This document shows, one piece after another, positions 15,870-31,146 of a stretch of DNA of 64,000 nt. Each line of letters starts with the position of its first letter. Position 1 is the stretch's first letter. Position numbers and translations under genes: made by a program. Source of the stretch: Turneriella sp. (GTDB lineage Bacteria; Spirochaetota; Leptospiria; Turneriellales; Turneriellaceae); NCBI GenBank assembly GCA_965279515.1, contig CBDIID010000003.1:4672001-4736000 (forward strand). The letters are read 5' to 3'. The notes below the pieces were generated by a model. The model saw only the letters and a program-made list of their open reading frames with translations, was not told the DNA's origin and made no database searches.

Positions 15870-16931
15870 TTAAGCCTCAAGGCCGCTGTTTTCGCTGTTG
15901 CGGATGTCTTCGAAGAGGTAATAGTTCGACAGCAGTATGTCGACGAGTTTTCCTTCGAAGGCAATGCCGCGTTTTTCCCTGAAGAACTCCTGTACCTTTT
16001 CCCGGGGCCAGGCATCCTTATAAACGCGTTTCTCTGTCAGCGCGTCATAGACATCGACGATGCCGACAATGCGCGCGGCAAGCGGACATTCATCGCCCTT
16101 AAGCCCTCCGGGATATCCCTTGCCATCCCAGCGTTCATGGTGCCTGAGCGCCACCGTGTGTGCCATACGCAGCAGGGGATCTTTAGAGCCGCTGAGAATC
16201 TGCCCGCCCAGAACCGGGTGTGTTTTCATGATCTCAAATTCTTCAGGCGTTAAGGGCCCGGGTTTTTTGAGGATTGCATCGGGGATAGCCAGCTTACCGA
16301 TATCGTGGAGCACCGCCGCTTCGCCGAGTTCTTCGGCGAAAGCACCCGGGCAATCGAGCAGATTGGCCATGAGACGGCTGAAACGGCCGATGCGCCTGAT
16401 GTGGCTGCCCGTTTCGATATGGTGGAGATCCGAAGTCATGACGAAGAGACGCGAAAATTCCCGCGCTGTCTCTTTGCTGCCTGTGCGCTCCTGGTCGAGT
16501 TTCATTTTTCTGAGCGCGTACGTGAGCTGTGATTTCAATTCAGGAATACGAAAGGGTTTTTGTACATAACCTACGGCGCCGCGCATGATCGCTTCATCGA
16601 TAATCTGCTCGTGCGTCATGCCGCTGAGAACAATGACATTAACGGGAAGCCTTTCTTCGCGGATGCGCGTCATCAGGTCGAAGCCGTCCATCGCCGGCAT
16701 ATCGAGGTCAGTCAGCACGATAAAAGGAGAGCCAGCTCTCAGTATCTGCAATGCGGCGTTGCCATCGGCTGCTTCAGCGACCTTGCAGCCCCAGGCAGAG
16801 AGCGTCAGGCGGAGGGATTTCCGGATCGCGGCTTCATCGTCGACCACCAAAACCGGTGTCGACGAATATAGCGCTGAAAAAATCTCTGTAGCAGTCCTCG
16901 TTTCTTCCCCGAGGATTTGTGCGATGGTCAT
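15870..16931 (-). CDS. REC + HD-GYP response regulator (c-di-GMP phosphodiesterase)
   Basis: VLVVDD..DLDMP..KP receiver; HDIGK, HHERWDGKGYP. Confidence 0.93.
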   Translation of the reverse strand: MTIAQILGEETRTATEIFSALYSSTPVLVVDDEAAIRKSLRLTLSAWGCKVAEAADGNAALQILRAGSPFIVLTDLDMPAMDGFDLMTRIREERLPVNVIVLSGMTHEQIIDEAIMRGAVGYVQKPFRIPELKSQLTYALRKMKLDQERTGSKETAREFSRLFVMTSDLHHIETGSHIRRIGRFSRLMANLLDCPGAFAEELGEAAVLHDIGKLAIPDAILKKPGPLTPEEFEIMKTHPVLGGQILSGSKDPLLRMAHTVALRHHERWDGKGYPGGLKGDECPLAARIVGIVDVYDALTEKRVYKDAWPREKVQEFFREKRGIAFEGKLVDILLSNYYLFEDIRNSENSGLEA

Positions 16932-16960
16932 GGGTTGTATGAAGACTAAATTTCCGGAAA

Positions 16961-17004
16961 GTTCAATTCGCGTATTTACACGACCGGCTTCGTAGATTTA
17001 CCGA
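16961..17004 (-). promoter_or_regulatory. Regulator box TCGGTAAATCTACGAA plus TTGAAC -35-like element for the HD-GYP gene
   Basis: Box 17004-16989 starts 38 nt before TTGAAC (16966), the same spacing as three other copies. Confidence 0.6.
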
Positions 17005-17040
17005 GGTTTCCGTCGCCAGGGCCGGATTACCTAATTTCCC

Positions 17041-17107
17041 TAGGTATCCCTACCGAGAGGGGGGTGTAGGCCTCACAATTGACTTCGGCGCGATTCCGGG
17101 TTAAAAC
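17041..17107 (+). promoter_or_regulatory. Regulator box TAGGTATCCCTACCGA plus promoter of the chemosensory operon
   Basis: Box 17041-17056; TTGACT 17079, 17 nt, TAAAAC 17102. Confidence 0.7.
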
Positions 17108-17125
17108 CAGCGCATTGGAGGCCAT

Positions 17126-17434
17126 GTGAACTTCTTCAGAAAAACAAACACTGCCTATATTACCCTCGAGCCCCCCGATTTTTCGGTCGCGGCCGCCAAA
17201 CTCTGGAGCAACATGCTCTACACCATGGAAGGGCACAACGTCACGCAGGTGACGGTACGGCTCTACGACGCCAGCGATATTTCATTGCGCACGCTTTCGG
17301 TAGTCATTTCCCTCGGGCTCAAGCTGCAGGGTGATGCGGTGGCCATGGAACTTGAGGCATCGCACCGGATTATCAATATCATCCGCAAGCTGAATCTGGC
17401 GTCGGCATTCACAAGGCTGACAGAGGTTGCCTGA
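17126..17434 (+). CDS. STAS/anti-sigma-antagonist-like protein
   Basis: GGAGG RBS then GTG; DASDISLRTLSVVI...IINIIRKLNL resembles a STAS fold; TGATG coupling to cheA. Confidence 0.55.
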   Translation: MNFFRKTNTAYITLEPPDFSVAAAKLWSNMLYTMEGHNVTQVTVRLYDASDISLRTLSVVISLGLKLQGDAVAMELEASHRIINIIRKLNLASAFTRLTEVA

Positions 17435-19890
17435 TGCAAATTAATCTGCGGGAAGTTAAAGAATCGTTCGTCGCGACTTCGCGTGACATTCTGCAGAAAG
17501 CAGAAAGCGTGCTTTTGGAAATGGAGCGCGAAGGCGGTGCGGCACATTTCGCCGAGTTGCTGCGCGCCATCCATACGATTAAAGGTAATGCGGGCATTTT
17601 TGAGCTTGAACCCTTAATTGCCCTGTGCCATGCTTTTGAAACCCGTTTCACCCTGGTACAGGCCTCGGGCGCTGCACCCGAAACCGGCATTATCGACCTG
17701 GGCCTGACGGCCATCGACCGCATGCGCGCGATCATCGCGGCGATGGATGACAAGGAAAAAATCGCGGGGCTCGATAATAACGATCTCATCCATGAGCTCG
17801 AAAATAAGCCAGCCGACCCGGCGGCGAAACAAGGTATTGCGGACGGCAAGGTTCCGGGGCACGGTTTTGACCGCCTGCGTGACAGAACGAGTAAAATCCG
17901 TCTGCCCGAAAAATATTTTAATATAGCCAAGCGCGAGAACCACTACCTGATTTTTCTCGTCATTGACCTGGGTGACCAGGATGCACTTTCCGCGGCGGAT
18001 TTTTTCTCCTCTTTAGCTACACTCCACAAATCGCAGCGCCTCTTGTCGCTGGGCGTCTTGCGTAAGGATTTCCAGGGCGACGCGCCCAAAGGTCCCTTTC
18101 TCCCTTATTTCCTGATTCTGAGCACCACGGAGCGCGCCGAAGAAATCGCCGCGCGACTTAAGGTCAAAATTGTCCTCTTCCATTATTTTCTGCATCCCGA
18201 AGTAAAACAACAAACCAAAACGCCGCACCCCGCCGGTTCACCGCGCGGCGAGCATGTACGTGAAACCCACCTCAAGGTGCATCTCGACCTGCTCAACAGT
18301 CTTATCGACATTACCGGAGAGATCGTGCTGACGCGCAATGCGCTTGTGCGCCGGCTCGATACCGTCGTTGACCAGGGCCTGGCAGCATTCACAAAAAAAC
18401 TCAGCTACCTGGTCACCGATCTGCAGGATAAAGTGATGAAAACCCGCCTGCAGTCGCTCGACGTGCTTTTTCACCGCTTTCCCCGCCTGGTGCGCGAAAC
18501 GGCGCAGCAGACCGCAAAAAAAGCCGAGCTGCGCACCGAAGGCGGCGAGATCGAGATCGACAAGGCCATCATCGATGAAATCGCCGATCCGTTGGTGCAT
18601 ATCATCCGTAACGCGGTTGATCATGGCATCGAAACTCCCGCTGAGCGTATTGCGGCAGGCAAGCATGAAAGCGGTACAGTCGTGCTCACGGCACGCTCGC
18701 GCGAAGGCAACATCGTTATCCGCGTCGCTGACGACGGCCGGGGGCTGGATCCCGAAAATATTAAGGATACCGCCATCCGCAAAGGCCTGATCTCGCGCGA
18801 AGCCGCTGCCGCGGCGACGCCACAGGAAATTACCGAATACCTTTTTCTGCCCGGCTTCAGCACCAAGAACGAAATCACCACGATTTCGGGCCGCGGCGTC
18901 GGTATGGATGTGGTGCGCACCAATATCATGCGCCTCGGCGGTTCGGTGGAGATTTCCGGCGAGCCGGGGAAAGGTTCTGCGATTGTGATCGTGATTCCCC
19001 AGACGCTGTCTATCCTCACCTGTCTCTTGATTGAAATGGGCGGTGCCCGCTTCGTCGTACCGCAGCAGAATATCGTCGAGGTTGTAACGATCGACCCCGC
19101 GCGCCTGAAGAATATCCAGAACAAGGAAGCGTATGAACTGCGTTCGCGCCTCTTGCCGATCGTATCCGGCGCGGAGATGCTGGAACTCGATGGCCCGGCC
19201 CTGACCGCCCCGTATCTCGTCGTGGTGCGCACGGAAAAATATCATTATGGTCTGAAAATTCAGCGCGTGCTGGAGAAAGAAGAAGTTGTCGTGAAAGCCG
19301 TGCCGCAGTTTGGCCAGGACCGCCAGATCTTTGCCGGGGCTGCGATCATGGGCGATGGCACGATCGCACCGATTCTCGACGCGGCGCTGATCGGCAAACA
19401 GGCGGGACTGCAGCCAAACGTTGAAGAAAAAACCACAGGACATGAAACTAAAAAAATTGCCGATGTGGCGCTACGCTATCTGCTCTTCCGCGTACACGAA
19501 CGGAAGGTCGCCTTCCGTATCACATCGCAGCCGCGAATCGAAAGCATCGATCCGGACAAGATAGAAACTGTCGTCAACCGGCGCGTGGTTCATTACCGCA
19601 ACGAAGTCATTCCGATCCTGTCGCTGGATTTCCTCGGCGGGGATCAATCCGCCGTTCTGACCAATCTCATCATCGTTCAGGCAGAGGACCGCCGCTATGG
19701 CATTCTCGCCAGCGAGATCATGGATATTCTGCCCGATAACCTGGCGTTGCGGCGCGAAACCGGCGACCGCAGCGAGATCGAGGGTTATGCGATTCTCGCC
19801 GAAGAAACTGTCATTGTCATCAACCTGGAAACATTAATGCGCGGTGCATATGCCGAACCGGCGCTGCAGATCGCGGGAGCTAACGTATGA
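17434..19890 (+). CDS. cheA: Chemotaxis histidine kinase CheA (Hpt-dimer-HATPase-CheW-CheW)
   Basis: HTIKGNAG, HIIRNAVDHGIE, DDGRG, GFST..SGRGVGMDVV. Confidence 0.96.
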   Translation: MQINLREVKESFVATSRDILQKAESVLLEMEREGGAAHFAELLRAIHTIKGNAGIFELEPLIALCHAFETRFTLVQASGAAPETGIIDLGLTAIDRMRAIIAAMDDKEKIAGLDNNDLIHELENKPADPAAKQGIADGKVPGHGFDRLRDRTSKIRLPEKYFNIAKRENHYLIFLVIDLGDQDALSAADFFSSLATLHKSQRLLSLGVLRKDFQGDAPKGPFLPYFLILSTTERAEEIAARLKVKIVLFHYFLHPEVKQQTKTPHPAGSPRGEHVRETHLKVHLDLLNSLIDITGEIVLTRNALVRRLDTVVDQGLAAFTKKLSYLVTDLQDKVMKTRLQSLDVLFHRFPRLVRETAQQTAKKAELRTEGGEIEIDKAIIDEIADPLVHIIRNAVDHGIETPAERIAAGKHESGTVVLTARSREGNIVIRVADDGRGLDPENIKDTAIRKGLISREAAAAATPQEITEYLFLPGFSTKNEITTISGRGVGMDVVRTNIMRLGGSVEISGEPGKGSAIVIVIPQTLSILTCLLIEMGGARFVVPQQNIVEVVTIDPARLKNIQNKEAYELRSRLLPIVSGAEMLELDGPALTAPYLVVVRTEKYHYGLKIQRVLEKEEVVVKAVPQFGQDRQIFAGAAIMGDGTIAPILDAALIGKQAGLQPNVEEKTTGHETKKIADVALRYLLFRVHERKVAFRITSQPRIESIDPDKIETVVNRRVVHYRNEVIPILSLDFLGGDQSAVLTNLIIVQAEDRRYGILASEIMDILPDNLALRRETGDRSEIEGYAILAEETVIVINLETLMRGAYAEPALQIAGANV

Positions 19891-20324
19891 GTATCGAAAC
19901 AGGTGAATATCTTTTGTGGCAATCGGGCGAGCGTGCCTTTGGCCTGGAGCTGCCGCATTGCCGTGAAATCGTCAACGGCGTGGCGCTGACACGACTGCCG
20001 CGAGCGCCGCTGTTTGTACTGGGCCTTGCGAATCTGCGCGGCAACGTCATTTCAGTTCTCGATCTCGAAATTCTGCTCGGTTATAAAAAGACCGCTGCCT
20101 ACCGCAGCGAAACGAATCTGATACGGCTGCGCACAAACGGTTATCCGATAGCGGTCGCTGCCGACAAAATCAGTGATACTGTCTTTCTGACAGAGGTCGA
20201 ACTCGAACGCGCGCCCGCGAACCTGAGCGAAGGCGAAAACAATTTCATCCGTCTGGTGGCAAAACTTCCGGGCGGCATCGTACTTATCCCCGATCTGAAT
20301 TCCATCGCGGCTAAGATTCAATAA
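19887..20324 (+). CDS. cheW: CheW coupling protein
   Basis: LTRLPRAPLFVLGLANLRGNVISVLDL. Confidence 0.92.
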   Translation: MSIETGEYLLWQSGERAFGLELPHCREIVNGVALTRLPRAPLFVLGLANLRGNVISVLDLEILLGYKKTAAYRSETNLIRLRTNGYPIAVAADKISDTVFLTEVELERAPANLSEGENNFIRLVAKLPGGIVLIPDLNSIAAKIQ

Positions 20325-20342
20325 AAAGCATAAGGAGAAACC

Positions 20343-21920
20343 ATGCGCAACAACCAACCCATAACAAACCGGGAAAAACCCATACCACAGGGCGCGACCC
20401 TCGTGTCGAAAACCGACCCTAAGGGGGTCATTATCTATGCGAGTAAAGACTTCAGCGACGTATCGGAGTACGAAAACGACGCAATGGTCGGCGAACCACA
20501 CAACATGGTACGCCACCCGGAGATGCCCCAGGCGGCGTTCGCCGATTTGTGGGAGCGCATCAAGAACGGCAGGCCGTGGCGCGGCATGGTCAAGAACCGC
20601 GCGCGCTCGGGCGACCACTACTGGGTCGAAGCGCAGGTTTCGCCGCAATACAAAAACGGTCGCCTCGCCGGATTTATGTCGGTGCGCCGGCCGCCGACAC
20701 GCGCGCAAGTGGAAGAGGCAGAAAGACTCTATGCGAAACTGAACAAGCAGGGTAAGAACGCACAGGTCGATTCGCGCAGCGGTATCCGTAAATTCCTGAA
20801 CAGGATTCCGATCAGTGTGCGCCTGGCCTTTTTGGTCACCGGATCGATTGCCACGGGTTTGGTTCCCCTCGCGCTCTTCCTTTTGGGCTATCCCGCGATT
20901 TTTATTGTCGGTGCGGGCCTCACCATCGGTGTCTTGAAATTGCCGGTACTGTTGTGGACGCGGGCGAATGTGCTAAAACACGTGAAGCTTGCCAACGAGT
21001 TGCTGAAAGATATGGGCGAGGGCGATTTTACCCGCTCGATCGATATCCGCGACAGCAGTGAGACAGGCCGCGTTCTTGAATCGCTGCAGATCATGAATAC
21101 GAATATCTCCGGCCTGATTTTCCAGATGATTGAAACAGGTAAGGATCTCAACTCCGGAGCAAAAGTACTCGCCGATTCCAGCCAGAATTTGTCCTCCGGG
21201 ATTGAGCAGATCTCACAGCAAACCACCACGATTTCATCAGCGGCGAACCAGATGAACCAGAATCTGCAGGTGGTCTCCAGCGCCGTCGAAGAGATGTCGA
21301 TATCGATCGGCGAAGTGGCCACCAAGGCCTCAGAGGGCGCACGGGTTTCCAAGGAAGCCGCGACGATTGCCGCGGAAACACAGGGCCTGGTACGCGACCT
21401 CGGTAACGGTGCAGAAAATATCGGCAAGGTTATCGAGATCATTGCCAAAATTGCCGAGCAGACAAATATGCTCGCACTCAATGCTTCCATCGAAGCTGCG
21501 GGGGCCGGTGAAGCCGGTAAAGGTTTTGCCGTCGTTGCATCAGAAGTTAAAGAACTGGCGAAACAGACAGCCGCGTCGTCTGAAGATATCAAGAAGCAGA
21601 TCCAGGCAATACAGAAAAGTACAGATGAGACGATTCAGGCGATCGGTAGCATCACCGGCATCATCACACGCGTCAATGAAGGTAATGCCAGCATCGCGTC
21701 CGCAGTCGAAGAGCAATCGATGACGACAAAAGAGATCGCCAGCAATGTTAACCAGATTTCCAGCGCCTCGGGTGAAATCAATAAGAACATTTCCGGTATC
21801 AGTATGGCAGTCACCGATAGCGCGAAAGATGCGCACAAGATATCCGAGTTGTCATCCGGGCTCAAAAAATTGTCCGACTTCCTCTCGGGCACGGTAGAGG
21901 AGTTCAAAGTCATCAAATAA
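20343..21920 (+). CDS. aer: Aer-type PAS methyl-accepting chemotaxis protein
   Basis: [62 protein letters not shown]. Confidence 0.88.
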
Positions 21921-21930
21921 GCCGATCTGC

Positions 21931-22959
21931 ATGAAGACACAAATACTCATCGTTGACGACTCCGAAGTTTACCGGCTTTTTCTGAGGAAAATTCTCGAAG
22001 CCGAGAGCGACATTGAGGTCGTCTCGGTGGCCTCGAACGGCCGCCTGGCGCTGCCCCGGGTGAATCATTATAAACCCGAGGTCGTGCTGCTGGATTATGA
22101 AATGCCCGAACTCGACGGACTGGCGGCGATTCCCGAAATCAAACGCCTGTCGCCGCATAGCCGCATCATCATGTTTAGCGCGCACACGACGCGCGGCGCC
22201 CGCCTGACGCTGAAGGCGCTCGAGGCAGGCGCCGACGATTTTATCACGAAACCCTCGGGGAACCTGAGCGGTGAGGTTGCAGAGAGTATCCGCCGTGAAC
22301 TGGTTGAGCGCATACGGGCGTTTTCTGCGGCCAGGGTAAAAGCCGCTGCGCCGGTTGCGGTTTCAAAACCCCGGTCAGCGACGGCGAAAAAAAAATTCCG
22401 CTACTGCGCGATTGGTATTTCAACCGGTGGACCGACTGCGCTGCGGCGTATCTTTAAACTGATTCCGAAAAGCATCCATGGCAGCATTTTTGTCGCGCAA
22501 CATATGCCGCCGTTATTTACCGCGCAACTCGCCGAAAGCCTGTCCGAGGAGTCTGAGCTCAAAATTGTCGAAGCTGCCAATGGCATGAGGCCCGAGCCTG
22601 CCTGCGTTTATATCGCTCCCGGCGGCAGGCAGATGAGGCTCGATGCGTCCGACGGGATAAAAATCGTCATTGAAGATGGCGATCCCGGTGAGCTCTGCAA
22701 ACCTTCGGTGAATAATCTCTTCTATTCTCTCGCAGCCCTGGCCCCCGAAAATACGCTGGCGGTCATCATGACAGGCATGGGTGAGGATGGCTACCTGGGT
22801 ATGAAACAGCTTGCCGCGAGCGGCGCCTACCTGATGGCCCAGGCTGAGACCGACTGCGTGATATTTGGCATGCCCGCGAAGCCAGTGCGGGATGGCATCG
22901 TCCATGAAATTCATGCGGCCGAAGAGCTGGCGAGAAAAATAACGGAGTACCTGAGCTGA
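21931..22959 (+). CDS. cheB: Chemotaxis methylesterase CheB (REC-CheB)
   Basis: Receiver; GISTGG, QHMP, TGMGEDG triad intact. Confidence 0.95.
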   Translation: MKTQILIVDDSEVYRLFLRKILEAESDIEVVSVASNGRLALPRVNHYKPEVVLLDYEMPELDGLAAIPEIKRLSPHSRIIMFSAHTTRGARLTLKALEAGADDFITKPSGNLSGEVAESIRRELVERIRAFSAARVKAAAPVAVSKPRSATAKKKFRYCAIGISTGGPTALRRIFKLIPKSIHGSIFVAQHMPPLFTAQLAESLSEESELKIVEAANGMRPEPACVYIAPGGRQMRLDASDGIKIVIEDGDPGELCKPSVNNLFYSLAALAPENTLAVIMTGMGEDGYLGMKQLAASGAYLMAQAETDCVIFGMPAKPVRDGIVHEIHAAEELARKITEYLS

Positions 22960-23819
22960 TGTCTGATACAGTGATGCCGCAAATTGCGCAGGCGATCAAA
23001 CGCCTGACCGGGCTTCATATCGAGCCCGAAAAATATTATCTTTTCGAACACCGTTTCCCCGAAGTGATGCGCGAATTTGCAATCGCTGACTTCACCGCGT
23101 TGCTTTTGGAAATCCAAAAGGGGATTAACCTCGAATTTATCGGGCGCATTATTGAAAAGATCACCACGCATGAAACGCGATTTTTCCGCGACGAAAGTAT
23201 TTTCGATGCCCTTGCTGAGCAGATTATTCCCGAGTGGAAGGAACGCTCCGCGATTGCCGGTGATACGATTGAATATCCGCCGCTGAAAATCTGGTCAGCA
23301 GCCTGTTCTACGGGGCAGGAAGTATATTCGATCGCCATGATGCTGGCCGAAACGCATCCCTACCTGGTTAAAAAAACGCAGATTCTCGCGACGGACATTT
23401 CCGCTGAATCCGTCGAGCGCGCTTCCAGGGGAGTTTATTCCGAGTTTGAGATCTCGCGCGGTCTTCCGGAGAAATTCCGCAACCGCTATTTTGTCAAAGC
23501 GGCAGGCGGTGGCGCGGTCAACAAGGCAATTTTACCGGCCATGGAATTTCGCGCGATGAACCTGCTGCAGGAGCCTTTTCGTGAAACCTTTGATATCGTT
23601 TTTTGCCGCAACGTCGCCTATTATTTTGCCCCGGATACGCGCATCGAGCTTTTCCGGAAAATGCGCGGGGCCGTGAAAAAAAACGGTGTTTTGGTTCTCG
23701 GTTCCGCCGAATCGCTGGATGGCTCGCTCAGCGACTATGTGCTCCGTGAGTTCGGGCTGGCGCGCTATTACGAGGTGAACAACGAAAATGTAACCATCTT
23801 CGCGCGCCGCCGGGATTAA
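22959..23819 (+). CDS. cheR: Chemotaxis methyltransferase CheR
   Basis: THETRFFRD, IWSAACSTGQEVYS, FCRNV. Confidence 0.95.
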   Translation: MSDTVMPQIAQAIKRLTGLHIEPEKYYLFEHRFPEVMREFAIADFTALLLEIQKGINLEFIGRIIEKITTHETRFFRDESIFDALAEQIIPEWKERSAIAGDTIEYPPLKIWSAACSTGQEVYSIAMMLAETHPYLVKKTQILATDISAESVERASRGVYSEFEISRGLPEKFRNRYFVKAAGGGAVNKAILPAMEFRAMNLLQEPFRETFDIVFCRNVAYYFAPDTRIELFRKMRGAVKKNGVLVLGSAESLDGSLSDYVLREFGLARYYEVNNENVTIFARRRD

Positions 23820-23864
23820 GAAAAATCGTGGCGACGCCGGGAAAATAGCCTCTTTCATGACATT

Positions 23865-26435
23865 ATGAATCCGCCGGGAATACACGTTGCGACGCTATTC
23901 CTGCTGACTGCGGTAGGTTCCCTCGCGATCAGCCTGTGGCCTCTTGCCTTGCGGCGCGGCCGCCTCGCGCATGTTGAGGGTATGGCATCATGGGCGCTGG
24001 CCTTGCTGCTGTCCGGAGCAGGTTGGACGATCTGGACTCTAATCGCTTTCGGTTTCGCACCTCCATTGGCCGTCAGTATTCTGGCGACATGCCTTTTGGT
24101 TTCTGCCTTGCCCCTGCAACTGCGGGCTTTTTCGCGATTGCTGGGAGCAGAGTTCTCCATCGTGCAGCACGCGGTTTTACTTTCGGTAACCGTGCTGTTA
24201 CTCATTTATTTTGCCTTTTTGTTTCCGAGTCTACCTCTGCGGATAACTGTGTCCTCTTTTTACGCAGCATGGATTGCGGTCTCGCTGATTCGTATTTTCT
24301 TTCGGTTTGGCCATCACGCATCGCGTTCCACTCTGTCGTTACTGAAGGGATTCTATGCTATTTCCTGTATCGCCATGATTGCGCGGGGAGTTATTGCCCT
24401 GGGGCATGTCGATGGGGCGCAGTTGAATATTATGACTCCGGACGTGACGCAGACGATCCTGTTCGTGTTCTTTTTTTTATCCGCCCTGATTCCATCTTTC
24501 GGTTTCATTTCGCTCTGCAACGATATTCATATGGAAAGTATCAGGGAAACCGGTGATCTGCTTGATTTTGCCCTCGATTCCACCGTTGACGCGGTCTGGG
24601 ATTTCAATTTCAGGACGGGCGAGGTTCATTTTTCAAAACGTTGGGAAGAAATGCTCGGTTTCAAGAAGGGCGAACTGCCGGATGATATTAAGAGCTGGGA
24701 GGCGAGGATTCATCCGGAAGATTTGCTTCTGCTGAACGAGGCTTTCTGGCAGTACTCGATCGGCAATGTTCCCGAGTATGAATGCAACCAGCGGATTCTC
24801 GGTAAAAACGGCGAATATGTCTGGGTCAAGGACCGCGGTATCATCGTCAGCCGCGATGAGCTGGGCAACCCCCTGCGTTTTGTCGGTACCATGAAGAACA
24901 TTGACGCCGAAGTGAAACGGAAAGATGATTCTATTAAAAACAATATGTTGCTGGAGAATATTTTCGAAAATTCTCCGGTGGGCATGGTGCTCATGAACAA
25001 AAGCCGGCAAATTATCAAATCGAACACTGCGGCGAGAAAAATGTTTTCGCTGACGCCGGAAGTTTTGGCCTCGCACTCATATGCCCGGCGCCCGGTATTG
25101 ACGCCGGCAGGAGAAGCCGGCAGTAACGATGAAATGCCGTCACGACGCGCATTAGATGCGCCCGGCGTGGTCCAATCGCAGTTTTACGGAATACGCTTCG
25201 AAGATGATTCCGTCCGTTGGTATGCATCGCAGTCCGTTTTTGTTCCGGCGCTCGATTTGATTTTAAGTTATTCGCTCGATCTGACCGATCTCGAGAGTGC
25301 GCGCCTCGCCCTGCATAAGAGCGAAATGAAATTCCGCCAGGTTTTCGACGTCTTACCCGTCGGGGTAAGGTTATTGTCTCGCGATGGCAGCGTGTCTGTG
25401 TTCAACAGCGCAGCCATCGATCACGCCAACATGAATGCCGTGAATTTCAGCAGCGGAGGGCCCCAGGAGTATTCCTTTTATTCCATCGATAATCTGCCGA
25501 TTGAGTTCAAGGATTTTCCGACAGTCAAGGCAGCGCGTGCGGGGGAGGCTTTTCACAATTTTGTTGTGGGCCACGATATTTCAGGGTCGCGGCGTTGGTT
25601 CAATGTCAGTGTCGATCCGATGCCCGATCTGAACCTGTCAGTCTATATGACGGTCGAAATTACGGAGCTTGTCAATTCACGCAACGCCTATGAGGAACTC
25701 AGCCGGAAACTGGAAGAGCGCGTCGCCATGCGTACCTCTGAGCTGGATTTTATAAATAAGGAGCTCGAATCGTTCAGCTATTCGGTTTCGCATGACCTGA
25801 GGGCGCCCCTGACGCGGATCCAGGGTTGGGTTAACGCCTTGGCCGAAGATTTCAGGAACCGGCTGGGGGAAAAAGCGGAGGGCTTTCTCGCGCATATCCG
25901 CACGGAAGTGCTTCGTATGGAGGGCATGATCCGCGCGACCATGGCATTGGCGAAGGCTTCGACGGTTCCGCTGCAGGCAAGCGATATAGATATCAGCGAG
26001 CGCGCCGAGGCGATTGTCGCAGAACTGCGCGATGAATTTCCCGCGTTGCCGATTAGTCTCAGCGTGGACGGTAAGATACACGTACGCGGTGATCAGGCGC
26101 TGATCGACGTGATGCTGCGGAACCTGTTGCACAATGCCGTAAAATTCAGCAGTAAAAAACCGCAGGCGGATATCCACTTTGGTTCGGTTCAGGGCGCGGA
26201 TGATAAAACCGAATATTTCATCGCCGATGCCGGCGCCGGGTTTGATCCGCGTTTTGCCGACAAGCTTTTTGCGCCGTTCCAGCGCCTTCACAGCGAAAAA
26301 GATTTCACCGGTACGGGCATTGGCCTGGCTACAGTCAGGCGGATACTCCATCGCCACGGCGGCATCATCCGTGCGGAATCGGCGCCGGGAAAAGGCACGA
26401 AATTCTTTTTCAGTCTTCCGGGGCTTCAGGAATGA
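23865..26435 (+). CDS. Membrane sensor histidine kinase (about 7 TM, multiple PAS, HisKA, HATPase)
   Basis: ELESFSYSVSHDLRAPL, NLLHNAVKF, DAGAGF, GTGIGL. Confidence 0.93.
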   Translation: MNPPGIHVATLFLLTAVGSLAISLWPLALRRGRLAHVEGMASWALALLLSGAGWTIWTLIAFGFAPPLAVSILATCLLVSALPLQLRAFSRLLGAEFSIVQHAVLLSVTVLLLIYFAFLFPSLPLRITVSSFYAAWIAVSLIRIFFRFGHHASRSTLSLLKGFYAISCIAMIARGVIALGHVDGAQLNIMTPDVTQTILFVFFFLSALIPSFGFISLCNDIHMESIRETGDLLDFALDSTVDAVWDFNFRTGEVHFSKRWEEMLGFKKGELPDDIKSWEARIHPEDLLLLNEAFWQYSIGNVPEYECNQRILGKNGEYVWVKDRGIIVSRDELGNPLRFVGTMKNIDAEVKRKDDSIKNNMLLENIFENSPVGMVLMNKSRQIIKSNTAARKMFSLTPEVLASHSYARRPVLTPAGEAGSNDEMPSRRALDAPGVVQSQFYGIRFEDDSVRWYASQSVFVPALDLILSYSLDLTDLESARLALHKSEMKFRQVFDVLPVGVRLLSRDGSVSVFNSAAIDHANMNAVNFSSGGPQEYSFYSIDNLPIEFKDFPTVKAARAGEAFHNFVVGHDISGSRRWFNVSVDPMPDLNLSVYMTVEITELVNSRNAYEELSRKLEERVAMRTSELDFINKELESFSYSVSHDLRAPLTRIQGWVNALAEDFRNRLGEKAEGFLAHIRTEVLRMEGMIRATMALAKASTVPLQASDIDISERAEAIVAELRDEFPALPISLSVDGKIHVRGDQALIDVMLRNLLHNAVKFSSKKPQADIHFGSVQGADDKTEYFIADAGAGFDPRFADKLFAPFQRLHSEKDFTGTGIGLATVRRILHRHGGIIRAESAPGKGTKFFFSLPGLQE

Positions 26436-28660
26436 GCGCTCCGGTTCAACCCAATCTCCGGGTTTTGATTATTGAAGATTCTGCGGCAGATGCCGCCCTG
26501 GTGGAAAGGGAAATTCAAAACCAGGGATACAAGCTTGTTTCCAGGCGCGTGGAAAACGAGGCTGAGCTCAGGTCGGCGCTGGCTGCCCCCTGGGATATTG
26601 TGTTGTCCGACTTCCGCCTGCCGCAACTCAATGCGATATTTGCGCTGCAAATCCTGAAAGAGCTGGAGTGCAATATTCCTTTCATTGTGGTTTCGCAGGC
26701 GATCGGCGAAGATATGGCCGTTGAGCTGATGCGGTCGGGGGCCTCCGATTACATTATGAAGGCGTCGCTAAAACGTCTGACTCCGGCTATTGAGCGCGAG
26801 CTGCGAGAAGCCGGCCGCCGGAGCGCCGCCGCCAGGGAGCTGCGTGATCACGAGAACTTTCTCGAGTCGGTGATCCATAACCAGCTGAATGGCGTGGTTG
26901 TGGTCAATCACCGCGGCGAGATAACGCTTACCAATGAAAGCGCTGAACAGATTCTGCAGATGCGGAAGGACCCCGCCACCGGGGCGATTATCGATGAGAC
27001 GGCGATGTGTACTTTCATCGATATGGAAAATGAACCTCTCGAGGCGGATAACCTGCCGGTGGCACTCGCTTTGCGCACGGGGAAAAAAGTTTCTGCAATG
27101 CAATATGGGGTGGTTTTTCCGCGCGGCAATCTGAAATGGTTATCCGTTTCTGCCTCGCCGATTACCGACGAAAACGGCAATCTGATCAATGTTGTCTACA
27201 GCTGCCTTGAGATCACCGAAATTATCGAAACGCAGAAAAGAAACCGTTTTCAGCTGCAGCAACTGAAGTTACAGGATGAAGCCATCAATAATTCGATGAA
27301 CGGAGTGATCATCGTCAACGCAAAACTTGCAGATATGCCGGTTGTGTATGTGAACAAGGCTTTTACCCGGATTACCGGGTACGAGGCGCATGAGGTTCTG
27401 GGACGTAATTACAAGTCCCTGCAAAGTGCGGGGGCGGACCAACCTGGACTCTCATCGATGTATACCAAGCTGCAAAACGGTGAAGGTGGCGAATATCTGG
27501 TACGCAATCATAAAAAAGACGGTACGATGTTCTATGCCCGGGTCAACACTGCAGTCGTGCGCAACGAAGCGGGGGAGATCGGTCACTTTGTTGCAATACA
27601 GAACGACGTCACGGAGCGAATCCTGATTGAGAAACAGCTGGAGATCGGCTGGGAGCGGATGCAGCTGGCGCTGCGCGGGGCGCAGCTGGGCATGATCGAT
27701 GTCGACTACGAAACCAGGGAAACGTATTATAGTTCGCGTTTCGCTGAAATCATAGGTTATACCCCGGCTGAATTACAGGCATCGATCGTTAGCTGGCGTG
27801 ATTTGATCCATCCCGATGAACTGGCTCAAACCGACCAGTTAGCCAATGATCTCATTGCCGGCAAAACCGAGCAGCTCGAAACCGAGGTCCGCTTTCGGCA
27901 TAAAGACGGACACTGGGTCTGGGTGCTTATCCGTGCAAAGGTTGTCGAACGTTCAGCCCAGGGCGTCGCGAAACGCGCTATCGGCACCGTGCTGGATATC
28001 AGCCAGCGTAAAGCCCAGGAAGAGAGAATTCTGGAACTGACGCAGAGCCTGATGCAGATTGCCGAGGCCGAACGCTCTGAGATTTCCGGGGAACTGCACG
28101 ACGTGGTCGGCCAAAGCCTGGTGTTATTGAAACTGAATGTCGTAAAATTTCTTCAGGCCGCGGGGATGCGCGACGAAACCAACGAGAATATGCTCGTTCA
28201 ACCCATCGCCGACACCTTGCAAAAAGTGCGCGAGATTTCGCGCCGGCTGACACCAAGCCACATGCAAAAAGTCGGCCTGGGGTTAGCGATTGAAGATATG
28301 CTCCAGGGGGTAGCGCGCCTTTCAGGCATAAAGATTTCCTGGAACCTCAATGCTCTCGAAGGCTTTTTTCCTTCGGACTGGAATATCCAGGTTTTTCGCG
28401 TCGTCCAGGAAGCGGTTACGAATGCACTCAAACATGCGGAGGCCACACAGATCAATGTGACGACGCAACGCCTCGAAGAAAATCTGGAAATCGTGATCGC
28501 AGACAACGGACGAGGCTTTTCCGGTTCGGCAGAGACGCCGGGGTTGGGGTTTTCGATTATGCGTGAAAGGGTTCGTGGCCTGCGCGGCCATATTTTCTGG
28601 GCGCCGGCTCAACCGGGCACCTCTGTTCATGTTGTGCTGCCAGCAACACCCATTCCTTAG
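26432..28660 (+). CDS. REC-PAS-PAS-PAS-HisKA_3 hybrid histidine kinase
   Basis: N-terminal receiver (LIIEDS..LSDF.LP); ISGELHDVVGQSL; QEAVTNALKHA; DNGRGF. Confidence 0.92.
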   Translation: MSAPVQPNLRVLIIEDSAADAALVEREIQNQGYKLVSRRVENEAELRSALAAPWDIVLSDFRLPQLNAIFALQILKELECNIPFIVVSQAIGEDMAVELMRSGASDYIMKASLKRLTPAIERELREAGRRSAAARELRDHENFLESVIHNQLNGVVVVNHRGEITLTNESAEQILQMRKDPATGAIIDETAMCTFIDMENEPLEADNLPVALALRTGKKVSAMQYGVVFPRGNLKWLSVSASPITDENGNLINVVYSCLEITEIIETQKRNRFQLQQLKLQDEAINNSMNGVIIVNAKLADMPVVYVNKAFTRITGYEAHEVLGRNYKSLQSAGADQPGLSSMYTKLQNGEGGEYLVRNHKKDGTMFYARVNTAVVRNEAGEIGHFVAIQNDVTERILIEKQLEIGWERMQLALRGAQLGMIDVDYETRETYYSSRFAEIIGYTPAELQASIVSWRDLIHPDELAQTDQLANDLIAGKTEQLETEVRFRHKDGHWVWVLIRAKVVERSAQGVAKRAIGTVLDISQRKAQEERILELTQSLMQIAEAERSEISGELHDVVGQSLVLLKLNVVKFLQAAGMRDETNENMLVQPIADTLQKVREISRRLTPSHMQKVGLGLAIEDMLQGVARLSGIKISWNLNALEGFFPSDWNIQVFRVVQEAVTNALKHAEATQINVTTQRLEENLEIVIADNGRGFSGSAETPGLGFSIMRERVRGLRGHIFWAPAQPGTSVHVVLPATPIP

Positions 28661-28724
28661 GTAGTTCTACCTAAGTCATGCCGTAAGCCCCTTGATTGAC
28701 ATCCGGCAATTTTCATGCTAAACC
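28656..28724 (+). promoter_or_regulatory. Palindrome CTTAGGTAG-TT-CTACCTAAG plus promoter of first cheY-like gene
   Basis: Core box 28658-28673; TTGACA 28696, 17 nt, TAAACC 28719. Confidence 0.75.
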
Positions 28725-28750
28725 AGCTCATCAATTTGAGCGGAGGCTTT

Positions 28751-29107
28751 ATGCAAACAATACTAGCGGTGGATGATTCAGAGACAATGCGACAGATGGT
28801 TAAAATGACCTTACAGGCAGGTAATTACCAGGTGGTTCTGGCGTCAGATGGCGAAGAGGGTTTGAGCAAATTCCTGAACAGCACGGGTGTAGACCTGGTG
28901 ATCACGGATATCAACATGCCGAAACTCGACGGCATCGGCCTTATCAAGGAAATTCGCGCGCGAAACGCAACGGTGCCCATTCTGGCGCTGACGACAGAAT
29001 CGGAAGACACGATGCGCAAAAAAGGTGCAGAAGCGGGTGCCAACGGATGGATGGTAAAACCTTTCAAGCCGGCGCAGTTCATCGATATCGTGCGGCAGAT
29101 ATTATAA
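28751..29107 (+). CDS. cheY: CheY-like single-domain response regulator
   Basis: ILAVDDS, ITDINMP, LTTES, WMVKPF; GGAGG RBS before ATG 28751. Confidence 0.88.
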   Translation: MQTILAVDDSETMRQMVKMTLQAGNYQVVLASDGEEGLSKFLNSTGVDLVITDINMPKLDGIGLIKEIRARNATVPILALTTESEDTMRKKGAEAGANGWMVKPFKPAQFIDIVRQIL

Positions 29108-29168
29108 AAGTTTTTCGGCGAAAACATTGACGCGGTGGAACCGCGTCGCAGGATCTGGCAGGTAAAAG

Positions 29169-29831
29169 GTGCATACTGAACAAGCAAAACCGATAAAAGA
29201 ATACCGCATTATTCTCGCCGATGACCACCCGATTTTACGCTCGGGTGTCAAGGTGCTGATCGAAAGCAAATCCGGCTACAAGGTCGTGGGAGAGGTTTCC
29301 AATGGCCAGGATTTGCTCGATCTCGTGGCAAAGACTCCCTGCGATATGGTCATCCTTGATCTTAATATGCCGCTCATGAATGGTATCGAGGCGCTCGAAT
29401 ACCTGCAGATACATTATACAGCGATCAGCACGCTGGTTCTCACGACGCATAAAGAAAAACCCTTTCTGAAACGTTCATTGTCGAAAGGCGCCAAGGGCTA
29501 TCTCCTGAAAGAAGAGACCCATGATAAGCTTCTGTCTGCGATTCAGGATATCCGGCAGGGGAAAAAGGTTATCTCATCAGAGATGACCAGCCTCATTGTC
29601 GAAGATTTTTCCACCGATCTTTCGAGCCCGCTGACCGCAGATCTGCTGACGCAGCGCGAGAAAGAAATTCTCAATCTCACCGCAAACGGCCTCACGAGTA
29701 AGGAAATCGGCGAACGCCTCGATATCAGCTCCCGCACCGTTGAGGCGCACCGCGCCAATATACGCGAAAAACTCGGCGTTACCACACAGAGCGAACTAAT
29801 CAAGTATGCCATGGATCACAATTTAATGTGA
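29169..29831 (+). CDS. NarL/FixJ-family response regulator (REC + LuxR HTH)
   Basis: LADDHPILRSG, LDLNMP, LTQREKEIL..GLTSKEIGERLDISSRTVEAHRANIREKL. Confidence 0.95.
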   Translation: MHTEQAKPIKEYRIILADDHPILRSGVKVLIESKSGYKVVGEVSNGQDLLDLVAKTPCDMVILDLNMPLMNGIEALEYLQIHYTAISTLVLTTHKEKPFLKRSLSKGAKGYLLKEETHDKLLSAIQDIRQGKKVISSEMTSLIVEDFSTDLSSPLTADLLTQREKEILNLTANGLTSKEIGERLDISSRTVEAHRANIREKLGVTTQSELIKYAMDHNLM

Positions 29832-29839
29832 TATTTCCC

Positions 29840-29905
29840 TCAGTAACTCTACCTAATCCAGTCCGCCAACAGCCGGATTGACTTTCCGGCGGAATCGGTT
29901 ATATT
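29840..29905 (+). promoter_or_regulatory. Regulator box TCAGTAACTCTACCTA plus promoter of second cheY-like gene
   Basis: Box 29840-29855; TTGACT 29878, 16 nt, TATATT 29900. Confidence 0.7.
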
Positions 29906-29914
29906 CTCCGCACG

Positions 29915-30271
29915 ATGGCAAATATTCTTGCAGTAGATGACTCAGAACCGATGCGTCAGATTGTCGAGCAGACACTGACGATGGGTGGGCACCAGGTGAT
30001 TCTGGCAGCCGACGGCGAAGAAGGGCTCGCCCAATTTGCCCCGGGTAAATTTGATCTCGTGATAACCGATATCAACATGCCCGTAATGGACGGGTTTGGG
30101 CTGGTGCGCGGTATCCGCGCGCTCGATGCCAAGGTACCGATTCTCGCGCTGACGACTGAAAACGAAGATGTGAAAAAACGCAGCGGCGAGGCGGCGGGTG
30201 TCGACGGCTGGATTGTAAAACCCTTCAAACCTGCCCAGTTTCTCGCCATCATCAAGCAGGTACTCACATGA
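29915..30271 (+). CDS. cheY: Second CheY-like single-domain response regulator
   Basis: ILAVDDS, ITDINMP, LTTEN, WIVKPF; close paralog of 28751-29107. Confidence 0.88.
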   Translation: MANILAVDDSEPMRQIVEQTLTMGGHQVILAADGEEGLAQFAPGKFDLVITDINMPVMDGFGLVRGIRALDAKVPILALTTENEDVKKRSGEAAGVDGWIVKPFKPAQFLAIIKQVLT

Positions 30272-31146
30272 TTCCGCAAACGACCATCGTTGACAAAAAC
30301 GAATCAGAAAACAGCGAACTGGGACAGGGCCTGAAACGGCATGAAAGCCATGAAAAAAATATGCGCGTGCATTTTGCCAGGGCTTTGCTCAGGAACATCC
30401 TGCACTCCGCTTCACAGGGCCTTGGCATCGGCGCGGTGCTGACCTATGTTGAAATGCTGCAGATGGGCGCTGCACGGCAAAAAGACCGTGTCGAGGTTGA
30501 CGCGGGCATTTACGATGCATTGGTCGAAAACGCAACAGCCGGGCGCCAGTGGCTTTCCGCATTTGGTAATATTCTCGAGGCCTTTGAAAAAGAATATCTT
30601 TGCGAAAATGTCGCAGCCGATGCTCTCGGCCGTGACTTTAACGAAGTGATCGCCGTCGCTGAAAAATTCCGGGCGATCAAGAATCAAAGACTCATGACCG
30701 ATCCCGTGAGTTTTTCGGGAAAAATCCGAATCAACCGTGAAGGTTTTCGCGAGATCATGGACGAGCTGCTGCTCAACGCCTTCAAGTATTCCCCGGCTGC
30801 GTCGAAGATCCGCATTCTGTGCTGCAGCACAGAGAAACTGGTATCATTTATGGTCGTAAACGAAATCGAAGCAATGCGCGGCGGCGTTACCGGGCTGCCT
30901 GCCGAATACCAGAAAAAGGTATTCGAACCTTTTTTCCGCCTGAACAATACCTGGGATGACCGTTTCAGGGACCAGCGTTTTGGCCTCGGCATCGGCCTTA
31001 CCCTCGCGGAAAATGTGGCGAATGCCTGCGGCGGCCGTCTCTATACCTATGAAATAGAGCTGCCCGATTCGGGCAAGGATGCTTCGCCGCATATGGTAAA
31101 GCGCGTTGTATCGGAGCTGGTACTCGAAAAGGTTCAAGGGTTATAA
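30268..31146 (+). CDS. Atypical histidine-kinase-like ATPase (HATPase_c)
   Basis: ELLLNAFKYS, KVFEPFFR, GLGIGL; no canonical HisKA box or DxGxG box. Confidence 0.75.
   Translation: MIPQTTIVDKNESENSELGQGLKRHESHEKNMRVHFARALLRNILHSASQGLGIGAVLTYVEMLQMGAARQKDRVEVDAGIYDALVENATAGRQWLSAFGNILEAFEKEYLCENVAADALGRDFNEVIAVAEKFRAIKNQRLMTDPVSFSGKIRINREGFREIMDELLLNAFKYSPAASKIRILCCSTEKLVSFMVVNEIEAMRGGVTGLPAEYQKKVFEPFFRLNNTWDDRFRDQRFGLGIGLTLAENVANACGGRLYTYEIELPDSGKDASPHMVKRVVSELVLEKVQGL

What the first reader, a model, noticed from the sequence alone, without database searches (positions are those of the whole stretch)
16961..29905. Four copies of a 16-bp box at identical promoter spacing define a candidate NarL regulon over the chemosensory cluster
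Seen: TAGGTATCCCTACCGA (17041,+), TAGGTAGTTCTACCTA (28658,+), TCAGTAACTCTACCTA (29840,+), TCGGTAAATCTACGAA (17004,-). All share GTA-N3-CTAC, and each starts exactly 38 nt before a -35-like hexamer (TTGACT 17079, TTGACA 28696, TTGACT 29878, TTGAAC 16966). They precede the STAS-cheA operon, cheY1, cheY2-HATPase and the divergent HD-GYP gene. Established: NarL/LuxR-HTH regulators bind 7-2-7 inverted heptamers, and fixed upstream spacing is typical of activators. Inference: the NarL protein at 29169-29831 activates all four promoters.
Basis: partly seen in the sequence, partly recalled or inferred. Interest (0 to 1): 0.82.

Follow-up and report, generated by a model that had tools for sequence, protein, structure and literature searches.

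The report
Tandem activator boxes on chemosensory promoters
Four predicted promoters around a chemosensory gene cluster of a spirochaete carry the same short DNA box at the same distance, kept in related species and usually followed by a weaker second copy, and the FixJ-like regulator encoded inside the cluster likely binds them to switch the genes on, which is a familiar kind of switch in an unstudied lineage.

Summary
Observation confirmed to the base and far above chance: a model trained only on 27 sites from other genomes ranks the four sites 1-4 on the 4.84-Mb main contig; shifted spacings give 0-1 hits. Inferred centres are -65.5 and -43.5, the geometry of BvgA and DevR promoters; box and recognition helix resemble FixJ, not E. 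coli NarL. The adjacent regulator is the best candidate (about 0.7), not the only one: four paralogues share its helix type, and one relative keeps boxes although the regulator is deleted at its locus. A second spelling (C..G for T..A) serves a FixL-type low-oxygen cluster 600 kb away; the scan noted this before on that DNA (e1-9852925, e1-9812298). Added here: the likely partner kinase has a LOV domain, with the photoactive cysteine in five relatives but not in this genome. No RNA or binding data. Real, clean, a new member of a known kind.

The parts
16989..17004 (-). distal 16-bp box of the HD-GYP promoter (inferred centre -65.5)
   Evidence: sequence; score 32.4 with the model from other genomes
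16967..16982 (-). proximal degenerate box (GTA 22 bp after the first), touching the -35
   Evidence: (13-nt direct repeat at 22-bp spacing)
16961..16966 (-). -35-like hexamer TTGAAC; ATG of the HD-GYP gene lies 35 nt on, so likely a leaderless mRNA
17041..17056 (+). distal box of the STAS-cheA promoter
   Evidence: score 40.9
17063..17078 (+). proximal degenerate box
17079..17107 (+). -35 TTGACT, 17 bp, weak -10 TAAAAC (predicted core promoter)
28658..28673 (+). distal box of the cheY1 promoter; its first three bases are the stop codon of kinase HK2
   Evidence: score 40.1
28680..28695 (+). proximal degenerate box
28696..28724 (+). -35 TTGACA, 17 bp, weak -10 TAAACC (predicted core promoter)
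29840..29855 (+). distal box of the cheY2-HATPase promoter
   Evidence: score 35.2
29862..29877 (+). position of the proximal box; only G and the last A kept, no GTA
29878..29906 (+). -35 TTGACT with -10 TATATT (16 bp) or ATATTC (17 bp); ATG 37 nt after the -35 start
29127..29132 (+). box-less TTGACG before the regulator gene; possible basal promoter
   Evidence: TTGAC 37-52 nt before the chosen start in 6 of 14 loci examined
15870..16931 (-). REC-HD-GYP protein (predicted c-di-GMP phosphodiesterase), target
   Evidence: Pfam
17126..17434 (+).
   Evidence: conserved 40-63% in relatives
17434..19890 (+). cheA (Hpt, dimerisation, HATPase, two CheW stretches)
19887..20324 (+). cheW
20343..21920 (+). 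chemoreceptor with an Aer-type PAS domain
   Evidence: E. coli Aer PAS, E 2e-37
21931..23819 (+). cheB and cheR
23865..26435 (+). HK1, PAS-HisKA kinase with a hydrophobic N-terminal part
26432..28660 (+). HK2, REC-PAS-LOV-like-PAS-HisKA_3 kinase, predicted partner of the regulator
27401..27424 (+). degenerate LOV motif in HK2 (tyrosine where relatives have the photoactive cysteine)
28751..29107 (+). cheY1, single receiver domain, target
29169..29831 (+). NarL/FixJ-family response regulator, predicted reader of the boxes
29915..31146 (+). cheY2 and HATPase-domain protein, targets

Best explanation
Each of the four sites is the strong upstream half of a tandem element, two 16-bp boxes 22 bp apart with the weaker one touching a -35-like hexamer, and the FixJ-like regulator at 29169-29831 likely binds both boxes as phosphorylated dimers and likely activates the four predicted promoters. 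Shown: the sequence, its spacing, its conservation, the domain content of the genes. Inferred chain: HK1 would phosphorylate the receiver of HK2; HK2 (HisKA_3, the kinase class that pairs with this regulator family; established knowledge) would phosphorylate Asp64 of the regulator; a dimer would bind the distal box (centre about -65.5) and recruit a second dimer to the proximal box (about -43.5) on the same face of the helix, which would recruit housekeeping RNA polymerase to promoters with a good -35 and a poor -10. Outputs: an Aer-type chemosensory operon that probably includes HK1 and HK2 themselves (gaps of -4 to 45 nt), two CheY-like proteins, an HATPase protein and an HD-GYP phosphodiesterase, so a positive feedback loop is predicted. 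Outer bases T..A would bias the sites to this regulator and away from the paralogues of the low-oxygen cluster, whose sites read C..G.
For: Independent model ranks the four sites first to fourth (32-41 bits); 8 shifted spacings give 0 hits above 18 bits in seven cases and 1 in one. Conservation at orthologous promoters: STAS 8 of 9 genomes, HD-GYP 6 of 8 (one unreadable, one negative), cheY1 9 of 9 (one weak), cheY2 4 of 7; the box follows cheY1 when it lies at other places. Blind test: 9 new sites in 6 of 7 metagenome loci with the orthologue (22,046 bases), 0 in 73 loci of more distant relatives (526,431 bases). Strict T..A pattern: 10 of 10 same-genus genomes with the orthologue, 0 of 4 without; in three of those four the whole cluster is absent between adjacent flanking genes. 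G013 (99% complete) has a tandem site before another che operon, and the orthologue is its only helix of this type among 4 GerE hits. Helix turn and recognition helix are 12 of 14 identical to FixJ, whose site in PMC4999443 is a 16-bp sequence starting TAAGTA with an element near -64. 22-bp spacing with the last site abutting the -35 is the BvgA geometry (PMC7250471); -43.5 is NarL's activating position at yeaR (PMC10853779). HD-GYP start codons lie 34-35 nt after the -35 start in the window and 6 of 6 relatives, which fixes the register indirectly.
Against: G004 (98% complete, 250 contigs) keeps two tandem sites, before STAS-cheA and cheY1, although cheR is followed directly by cheY2 on one contig (HK1, HK2 and the regulator are missing there) and no orthologue was found among its 3 GerE hits. 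Five proteins of this genome share the RTVE-H/Y-R helix. A core paralogue has a T..A palindrome before its neighbouring gene in 8 of the 17 core-paralogue loci scanned plus overlapping duplicates, in genomes that include four without the window orthologue. Two further T..A sites lie beside another paralogue at C3:4112051. Co-occurrence is partly trivial because boxes and regulator are inherited as one block, and kin are not independent. Promoters with TTGAC and no clear -10 are common here (35 of 336 have TA at the -10 start), so a weak -10 does not prove activator dependence. The cheY2 site lacks the second GTA. No RNA, start-site or binding data.
Confidence: 0.7

Rival explanations
1. The boxes are activator sites, but they are read mainly or jointly by another FixJ-like paralogue (the core regulator at C3:2269223 or the one at C3:4112051); the adjacent protein is one of several readers.
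For: G004 keeps sites with only the core paralogue found. The core paralogue's neighbouring gene has a T..A palindrome, in G017 and G018 with a second GTA at the tandem position. In G021 and G016, which lack the window orthologue, the same T..A tandem precedes ccoN, ccoS and sqr genes.
Against: The core paralogue is present in G001, G006 and G009, which have no T..A site with TTGA by two patterns, and was not found in G013 or G010, which have sites. The 4112051 type was found only in G000 and G003. The low-oxygen paralogues go with the C..G spelling: window sites score 7-13 bits on that model against 32-41 on their own.
Confidence: 0.2
2. The boxes bind the regulator but it represses, or a regulator of another family uses them.
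Against: Both boxes lie upstream of the -35 and at one fixed distance in 50 curated sites, as for activators; T at the last -10 position is in 1 of 13 box promoters of this genome against 28 of 60 intergenic TTGAC-N18-TA sites (Fisher p 0.011); NarL-type genes lie next to the sites in both clusters, in G063 and in one unrelated locus.
Confidence: 0.07
3. The four matches are chance or a relic without present function.
For: The core alone is frequent (1016 hits); some strict-pattern hits in relatives lie inside genes; G004 shows that boxes can outlast the regulator's locus.
Against: motif positions stay while spacer bases change between species.
Confidence: 0.03

Closest known systems
FixJ and the fixK promoter of rhizobia (PMC4999443, passages read; PDB 1x3u)
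   Same: 16-bp site starting TAAGTA, element near -64, two protected regions (-69 to -44, -57 to -31); nearly identical recognition helix.
   Different: Right half TAC(C/G)TA rather than CCCTTA; the window regulator pairs by prediction with a HisKA_3 kinase bearing a LOV-like domain, not a haem FixL; targets are chemosensory genes. The FixL-type haem PAS belongs to the paralogous cluster.
BvgA-activated promoters of Bordetella (PMC7250471, passages read)
   Same: Dimers centred 22 bp apart, strongest site upstream, last site abutting the -35.
   Different: Two sites rather than three to six; 16-bp box with another sequence; no BvgS-type sensor tested or seen.
DevR/DosR promoters of mycobacteria (PMC3029386, passages read)
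   Same: High-affinity primary and low-affinity secondary site, proximal one at the -35, cooperative filling.
   Different: Different sequence; here the proximal box abuts rather than overlaps the hexamer; cooperativity untested.
E. coli NarL at yeaR and ogt (PMC10853779, passages read)
   Same: Same fold; 16-bp (7-2-7) geometry; activation from -43.5; two-site activation at ogt.
   Different: Base-reading Lys188, Val189, Lys192 are Glu192, Ala193, Ala196 here; no NarX or nitrate genes among the targets; site spacing 22 bp, not 33.
ComA of Bacillus subtilis (PMC4797271, passages read)
   Same: 6-4-6 inverted repeat upstream plus a degenerate element at the -35, class I plus class II activation.
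   Different: ComA's proximal element is a direct repeat; here it is a second inverted repeat where it is well kept (G021 and unrelated phyla).

Membership tests
NarL/FixJ response regulators | Receiver domain plus GerE/LuxR helix-turn-helix | tested here: met
   PF00072 and PF00196 above cut-off; best PDB match E. coli NarL
NarL/FixJ response regulators | Intact phosphorylation site | tested here: met
   Asp18-Asp19, Asp64, Thr92, Lys114
NarL/FixJ response regulators | Linked HisKA_3 kinase | tested here: met
   HK2 PF07730 with H-box; HK2 orthologue in 9 of the 10 genomes with the regulator, not found in G003 (77% complete), G001, G004, G006, G009; phosphotransfer itself untested
NarL/FixJ response regulators | Binds the 16-bp inverted repeat as a dimer | not testable with these tools
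   no protein-DNA assay or model available
E. coli NarL regulon | Lys188/Val189/Lys192 base readers and the NarL heptamer | tested here: not met
   Glu/Ala/Ala at those places; the NarL heptamer consensus itself is recalled, not from a call
FixLJ | FixJ-type recognition helix and 16-bp box near -64 | tested here: met
   position inferred from the -35
FixLJ | Haem-PAS FixL kinase as partner | tested here: not met
   HK2's second PAS is LOV-like and its kinase core is HisKA_3; the other PAS domains of HK1 and HK2 were not searched against PDB; the FixL-type domain is at C3:4078581-4080020
BvgA/DevR-type tandem promoters | Sites 22 bp apart, strongest upstream, last at the -35 | tested here: met
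   GTA at +25 in 35 of 50 sites, 0-1 at the 19 other offsets; A at +37 in 31 of 31 T..A sites
BvgA/DevR-type tandem promoters | Cooperative filling of the weak site needed for activation | not testable with these tools
   needs footprints and reporters
ComA IR+DR promoters | Proximal element is a direct repeat with 5-nt spacer | tested here: not met
   no GTA peak 11 bp after the second; perfect second inverted repeats in G021
LOV photoreceptor kinases | G-x-N-C-R-F-L motif with the adduct-forming cysteine | tested here: not met
   window has Tyr-Lys-Ser there; the cysteine motif is present in G002, G005, G007, G011 and L187, degenerate in G012, domain not seen in G010, G013 by motif
sigma70 promoters | Mapped start site about 35 nt after the -35 | not testable with these tools
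   no RNA holder listed; indirect only

The most novel reading that the evidence does not exclude
In Turneriella-like spirochaetes an oxygen-type FixJ switch was duplicated and rewired: one copy kept a haem sensor and low-oxygen genes and reads C..G boxes, the other reads T..A boxes and lets a LOV kinase turn on an Aer-type chemosensory system in response to blue light or flavin redox, with one base pair at each box end insulating the two; this genome has lost the photoactive cysteine and so senses something else.
Probability: 0.25. Interest if true: 0.6.

Novelty: new member of a known kind. Interest (0 to 1): 0.36.

Why it matters
It gives a base-precise, cross-species regulon for a lineage with almost no regulatory data, and a natural pair of paralogous regulators whose sites differ mainly at the outermost base, which makes specificity easy to test. 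If the LOV link holds, light or redox would control the making of a chemosensory system in a spirochaete; my one search for LOV kinases in spirochaetes listed four papers, none on this by title or abstract start. The promoter design itself is textbook.

Tried and rejected
ECF, sigma28 or sigma54 promoter: considered from recalled consensus and dropped, because TTGA-N17-TA fits sigma70 across 50 sites. Everted NarL heptamers: dropped; the box has the ordinary 16-bp geometry with other bases. ComA-type direct repeat: not supported. Perfect co-occurrence of box and regulator: broken by the looser pattern, which found G004. Weak -10 as proof of activator dependence: weakened. A residue code for T..A versus C..G (Gly at 193, or Arg at 197, in the C..G-linked paralogues): suggestive, too few independent lineages, not claimed. 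Expression: no RNA holder listed. One search shows only that two contig sets, probably the window's source, hold 16800-30400 without differences. Class-wide scan: 27 of 190 genomes match; in the two largest other families 14 of 156 match against a similar number of control hits, so no enrichment there. Paper searches gave nothing on this system; the spirochaete RNA polymerase preprint (passages) did not bear on it. The tree is the quick version; the careful search did not finish. No structure or complex prediction was run. Chemotaxis class of the cluster was not tested. Supplements were not read.
Full report
Observation. The flanking genes are a REC-HD-GYP protein on the minus strand and, on the plus strand, a 102-aa gene without Pfam match, cheA, cheW, a PAS chemoreceptor, cheB, cheR, two kinases, cheY1, the regulator, cheY2 and an HATPase protein. 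The window lies on contig C3 of a 4.9-Mb genome; record titles of related loci name Turneriella and Spirochaetota.

Chance. The core is common (1016 strand-hits of GTA-N4-TAC on C3), the combination is not: TTGAC at offset 38 in 10 hits, mean 0.7 and maximum 3 at 69 other offsets, 7 of the 10 outside the window. A weight matrix built from 27 sites of nine other genomes, chosen by pattern and by position before orthologous genes, ranks the four window sites 1-4 (40.9, 40.1, 35.2, 32.4 bits); 8 sites pass 18 bits, all intergenic, and shifting the downstream block by 8 other distances leaves 0 (seven times) or 1. On 80 metagenome loci fetched later, the same matrix found 9 sites not in the training set in 6 of 7 loci with the orthologous regulator and none in the other 73.

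Anatomy. A second GTA lies 22 bp after the first in 35 of 50 curated sites (20 of 27 in relatives, 3 of 4 in the window, 7 of 14 C..G sites, 5 of 5 in other genera), with 0-1 at the other 19 offsets; it was not used to select those sites. The base before the -35 is A in all 31 T..A sites. In G021 the second box is a full inverted repeat. So the element is two 16-bp boxes, the second ending at the hexamer. With a 17-bp spacer the centres are -65.5 and -43.5 (inference). HD-GYP start codons lie 34-35 nt after the hexamer start in the window and in 6 of 6 relatives, as expected if the message begins at the start codon. The -10 is TAnAnn, mostly without the last T (1 of 13 in this genome against 28 of 60, p 0.011), but promoters without a clear -10 are common in this genome, so this is weak support.

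Conservation. Boxes were found before STAS in 8 of 9 genomes holding that gene, HD-GYP 6 of 8, cheY1 9 of 9 and cheY2 4 of 7; misses are G010 (STAS, HD-GYP), G004 (HD-GYP unreadable, cheY2), G003 and G008 (cheY2). Where cheY1 lies away from the cluster it keeps the box. A receiver-cyclase gene that follows the HATPase gene in G003, G007, G008 and G011 lies at C3:4106904 here and has its own T..A site, as does an HD-GYP paralogue beside it. G013 has the site before a different che operon.

Which regulator. The protein at 29169 has an intact receiver and a GerE domain. Its helix matches FixJ (12 of 14 residues), and the FixJ site quoted in PMC4999443 is 16 bp, begins TAAGTA and lies near -64 (passages). 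E. coli NarL's base-reading residues (PMC10853779, passages) are replaced. Orthologues (71-83%) occur in 9 of 13 same-genus genomes; the strict pattern hits those 9 and this genome, and none of the other 4. In G001, G006 and G009 the cluster is absent between adjacent flanks. In G013 the orthologue is the only helix of the type. Against: G004 has two tandem sites although HK1, HK2 and the regulator are missing between cheR and cheY2 on one contig and were not found elsewhere in a 250-contig assembly. Five proteins of this genome share the helix type, and the core paralogue has a T..A palindrome beside it in several relatives. I put 0.7 on the adjacent protein as main reader and 0.2 on shared or other reading.

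Second spelling. Sites of the same geometry with outer C..G lie at C3:4.068-4.093 Mb and a few other places, before an HDOD protein, an M50-CBS protease, a PEP synthase-oxidoreductase-DsrC-DsrE unit and a receiver-kinase unit whose PAS domain matches FixL with its histidine. The strict C..G pattern hits this genome (7), G001 (1), G008 (2) and one genome of another family (1) among 31; the first three hold the paralogues of that cluster. The two models separate the sets: window sites 32-41 versus 7-13 bits; 8 of 9 C..G sites score higher on their own model. In other genera the T..A tandem precedes ccoN, ccoS and the same oxidoreductase unit (G016, G021), which suggests a low-oxygen origin (inference). 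I found this before reading the scan's notes; e1-9852925, e1-9812298 and e1-8284793 describe it from that DNA.

Breadth. A strict tandem pattern gave 37 loci in GTDB; 13 are kin, 24 are from other phyla, a number that chance can give, but 4 of those 24 have TAC in the unspecified half of the second box (expected 0.4, p 0.0005) and one lies between two NarL-type genes. The design is therefore general. It matches BvgA (22-bp spacing, last site abutting -35; PMC7250471, passages), DevR (primary and secondary sites; PMC3029386, passages) and in part ComA (PMC4797271, passages).

Input and output. HK2 is a receiver-PAS-HisKA_3 kinase; its second PAS is closest to LOV photoreceptors. G002, G005, G007, G011 and the closest metagenome relative L187 carry the cysteine motif, this genome has tyrosine, G012 is also degenerate. 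The chemoreceptor's PAS matches Aer. Gaps of -4 to 45 nt from the first gene to HK2 suggest one operon, so the regulator would induce its own kinases; it may have a box-less basal promoter at 29127. All of these links are inferred.

Literature check. Turneriella plus chemotaxis gave 12 papers, 9 listed, none on this regulon by title or abstract start; searches likewise. The library lacks most subscription papers.

Verdict. New member of a known kind, interest 0.36.

Noticed in passing
window 27278-27616 (HK2); L005:6581-6970, L007, L008, L009, L187: LOV-like domain in the kinase; relatives keep the photoactive cysteine motif, this genome does not.
   Followed up: partly
L001-L003 (G000 C3:4.068-4.116 Mb): Paralogous cluster with FixL-type haem PAS kinase, receiver, REC-HisKA_3 kinase, three NarL-type regulators and C..G boxes of the same geometry.
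   Followed up: yes
window 30268-31146: The HATPase protein is 292 aa here but 412-417 aa in five relatives; about 120 N-terminal residues are missing.
   Followed up: no
G000 C3:3521382, before a cheY paralogue at 3521488: Perfect T..A palindrome with a second GTA at the tandem position but no TTG at offset 38.
   Followed up: no
G000 C3:1390468, 3458262, 3080927, 4193484, 1538287, 4275505: Further intergenic or upstream tandem sites outside both clusters; 1390468 is a hybrid (C..A).
   Followed up: partly
L045, L048-L052, L055, L112: T..A palindrome before a small (about 95 aa) signal-peptide-like gene next to the core NarL-type pair.
   Followed up: partly
L124, L125, L119 (G001, G006, G009): The whole 15-kb block from the HD-GYP gene to the HATPase gene is absent between otherwise adjacent flanking genes, so it behaves as a gained or lost unit.
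   Followed up: partly
window 29129-29147: 8-bp perfect hairpin between cheY1 and the regulator, overlapping a box-less TTGACG; U-tract only on the minus strand.
   Followed up: no
window 17028-17033: Extra half-site TACCTA 23 bp upstream in register of the STAS box, between the two divergent elements.
   Followed up: no
L159, L163, L166, L178, L183: Near-perfect tandem boxes before TTGAC in Methylococcaceae, Acidobacteriota, Victivallales and Bacteroidota records; L166 lies between two NarL-type genes.
   Followed up: partly
L073 (G181): The same tandem-like site occurs twice, 2.4 kb apart, in a repeated stretch near ribosomal-RNA-like sequence.
   Followed up: no
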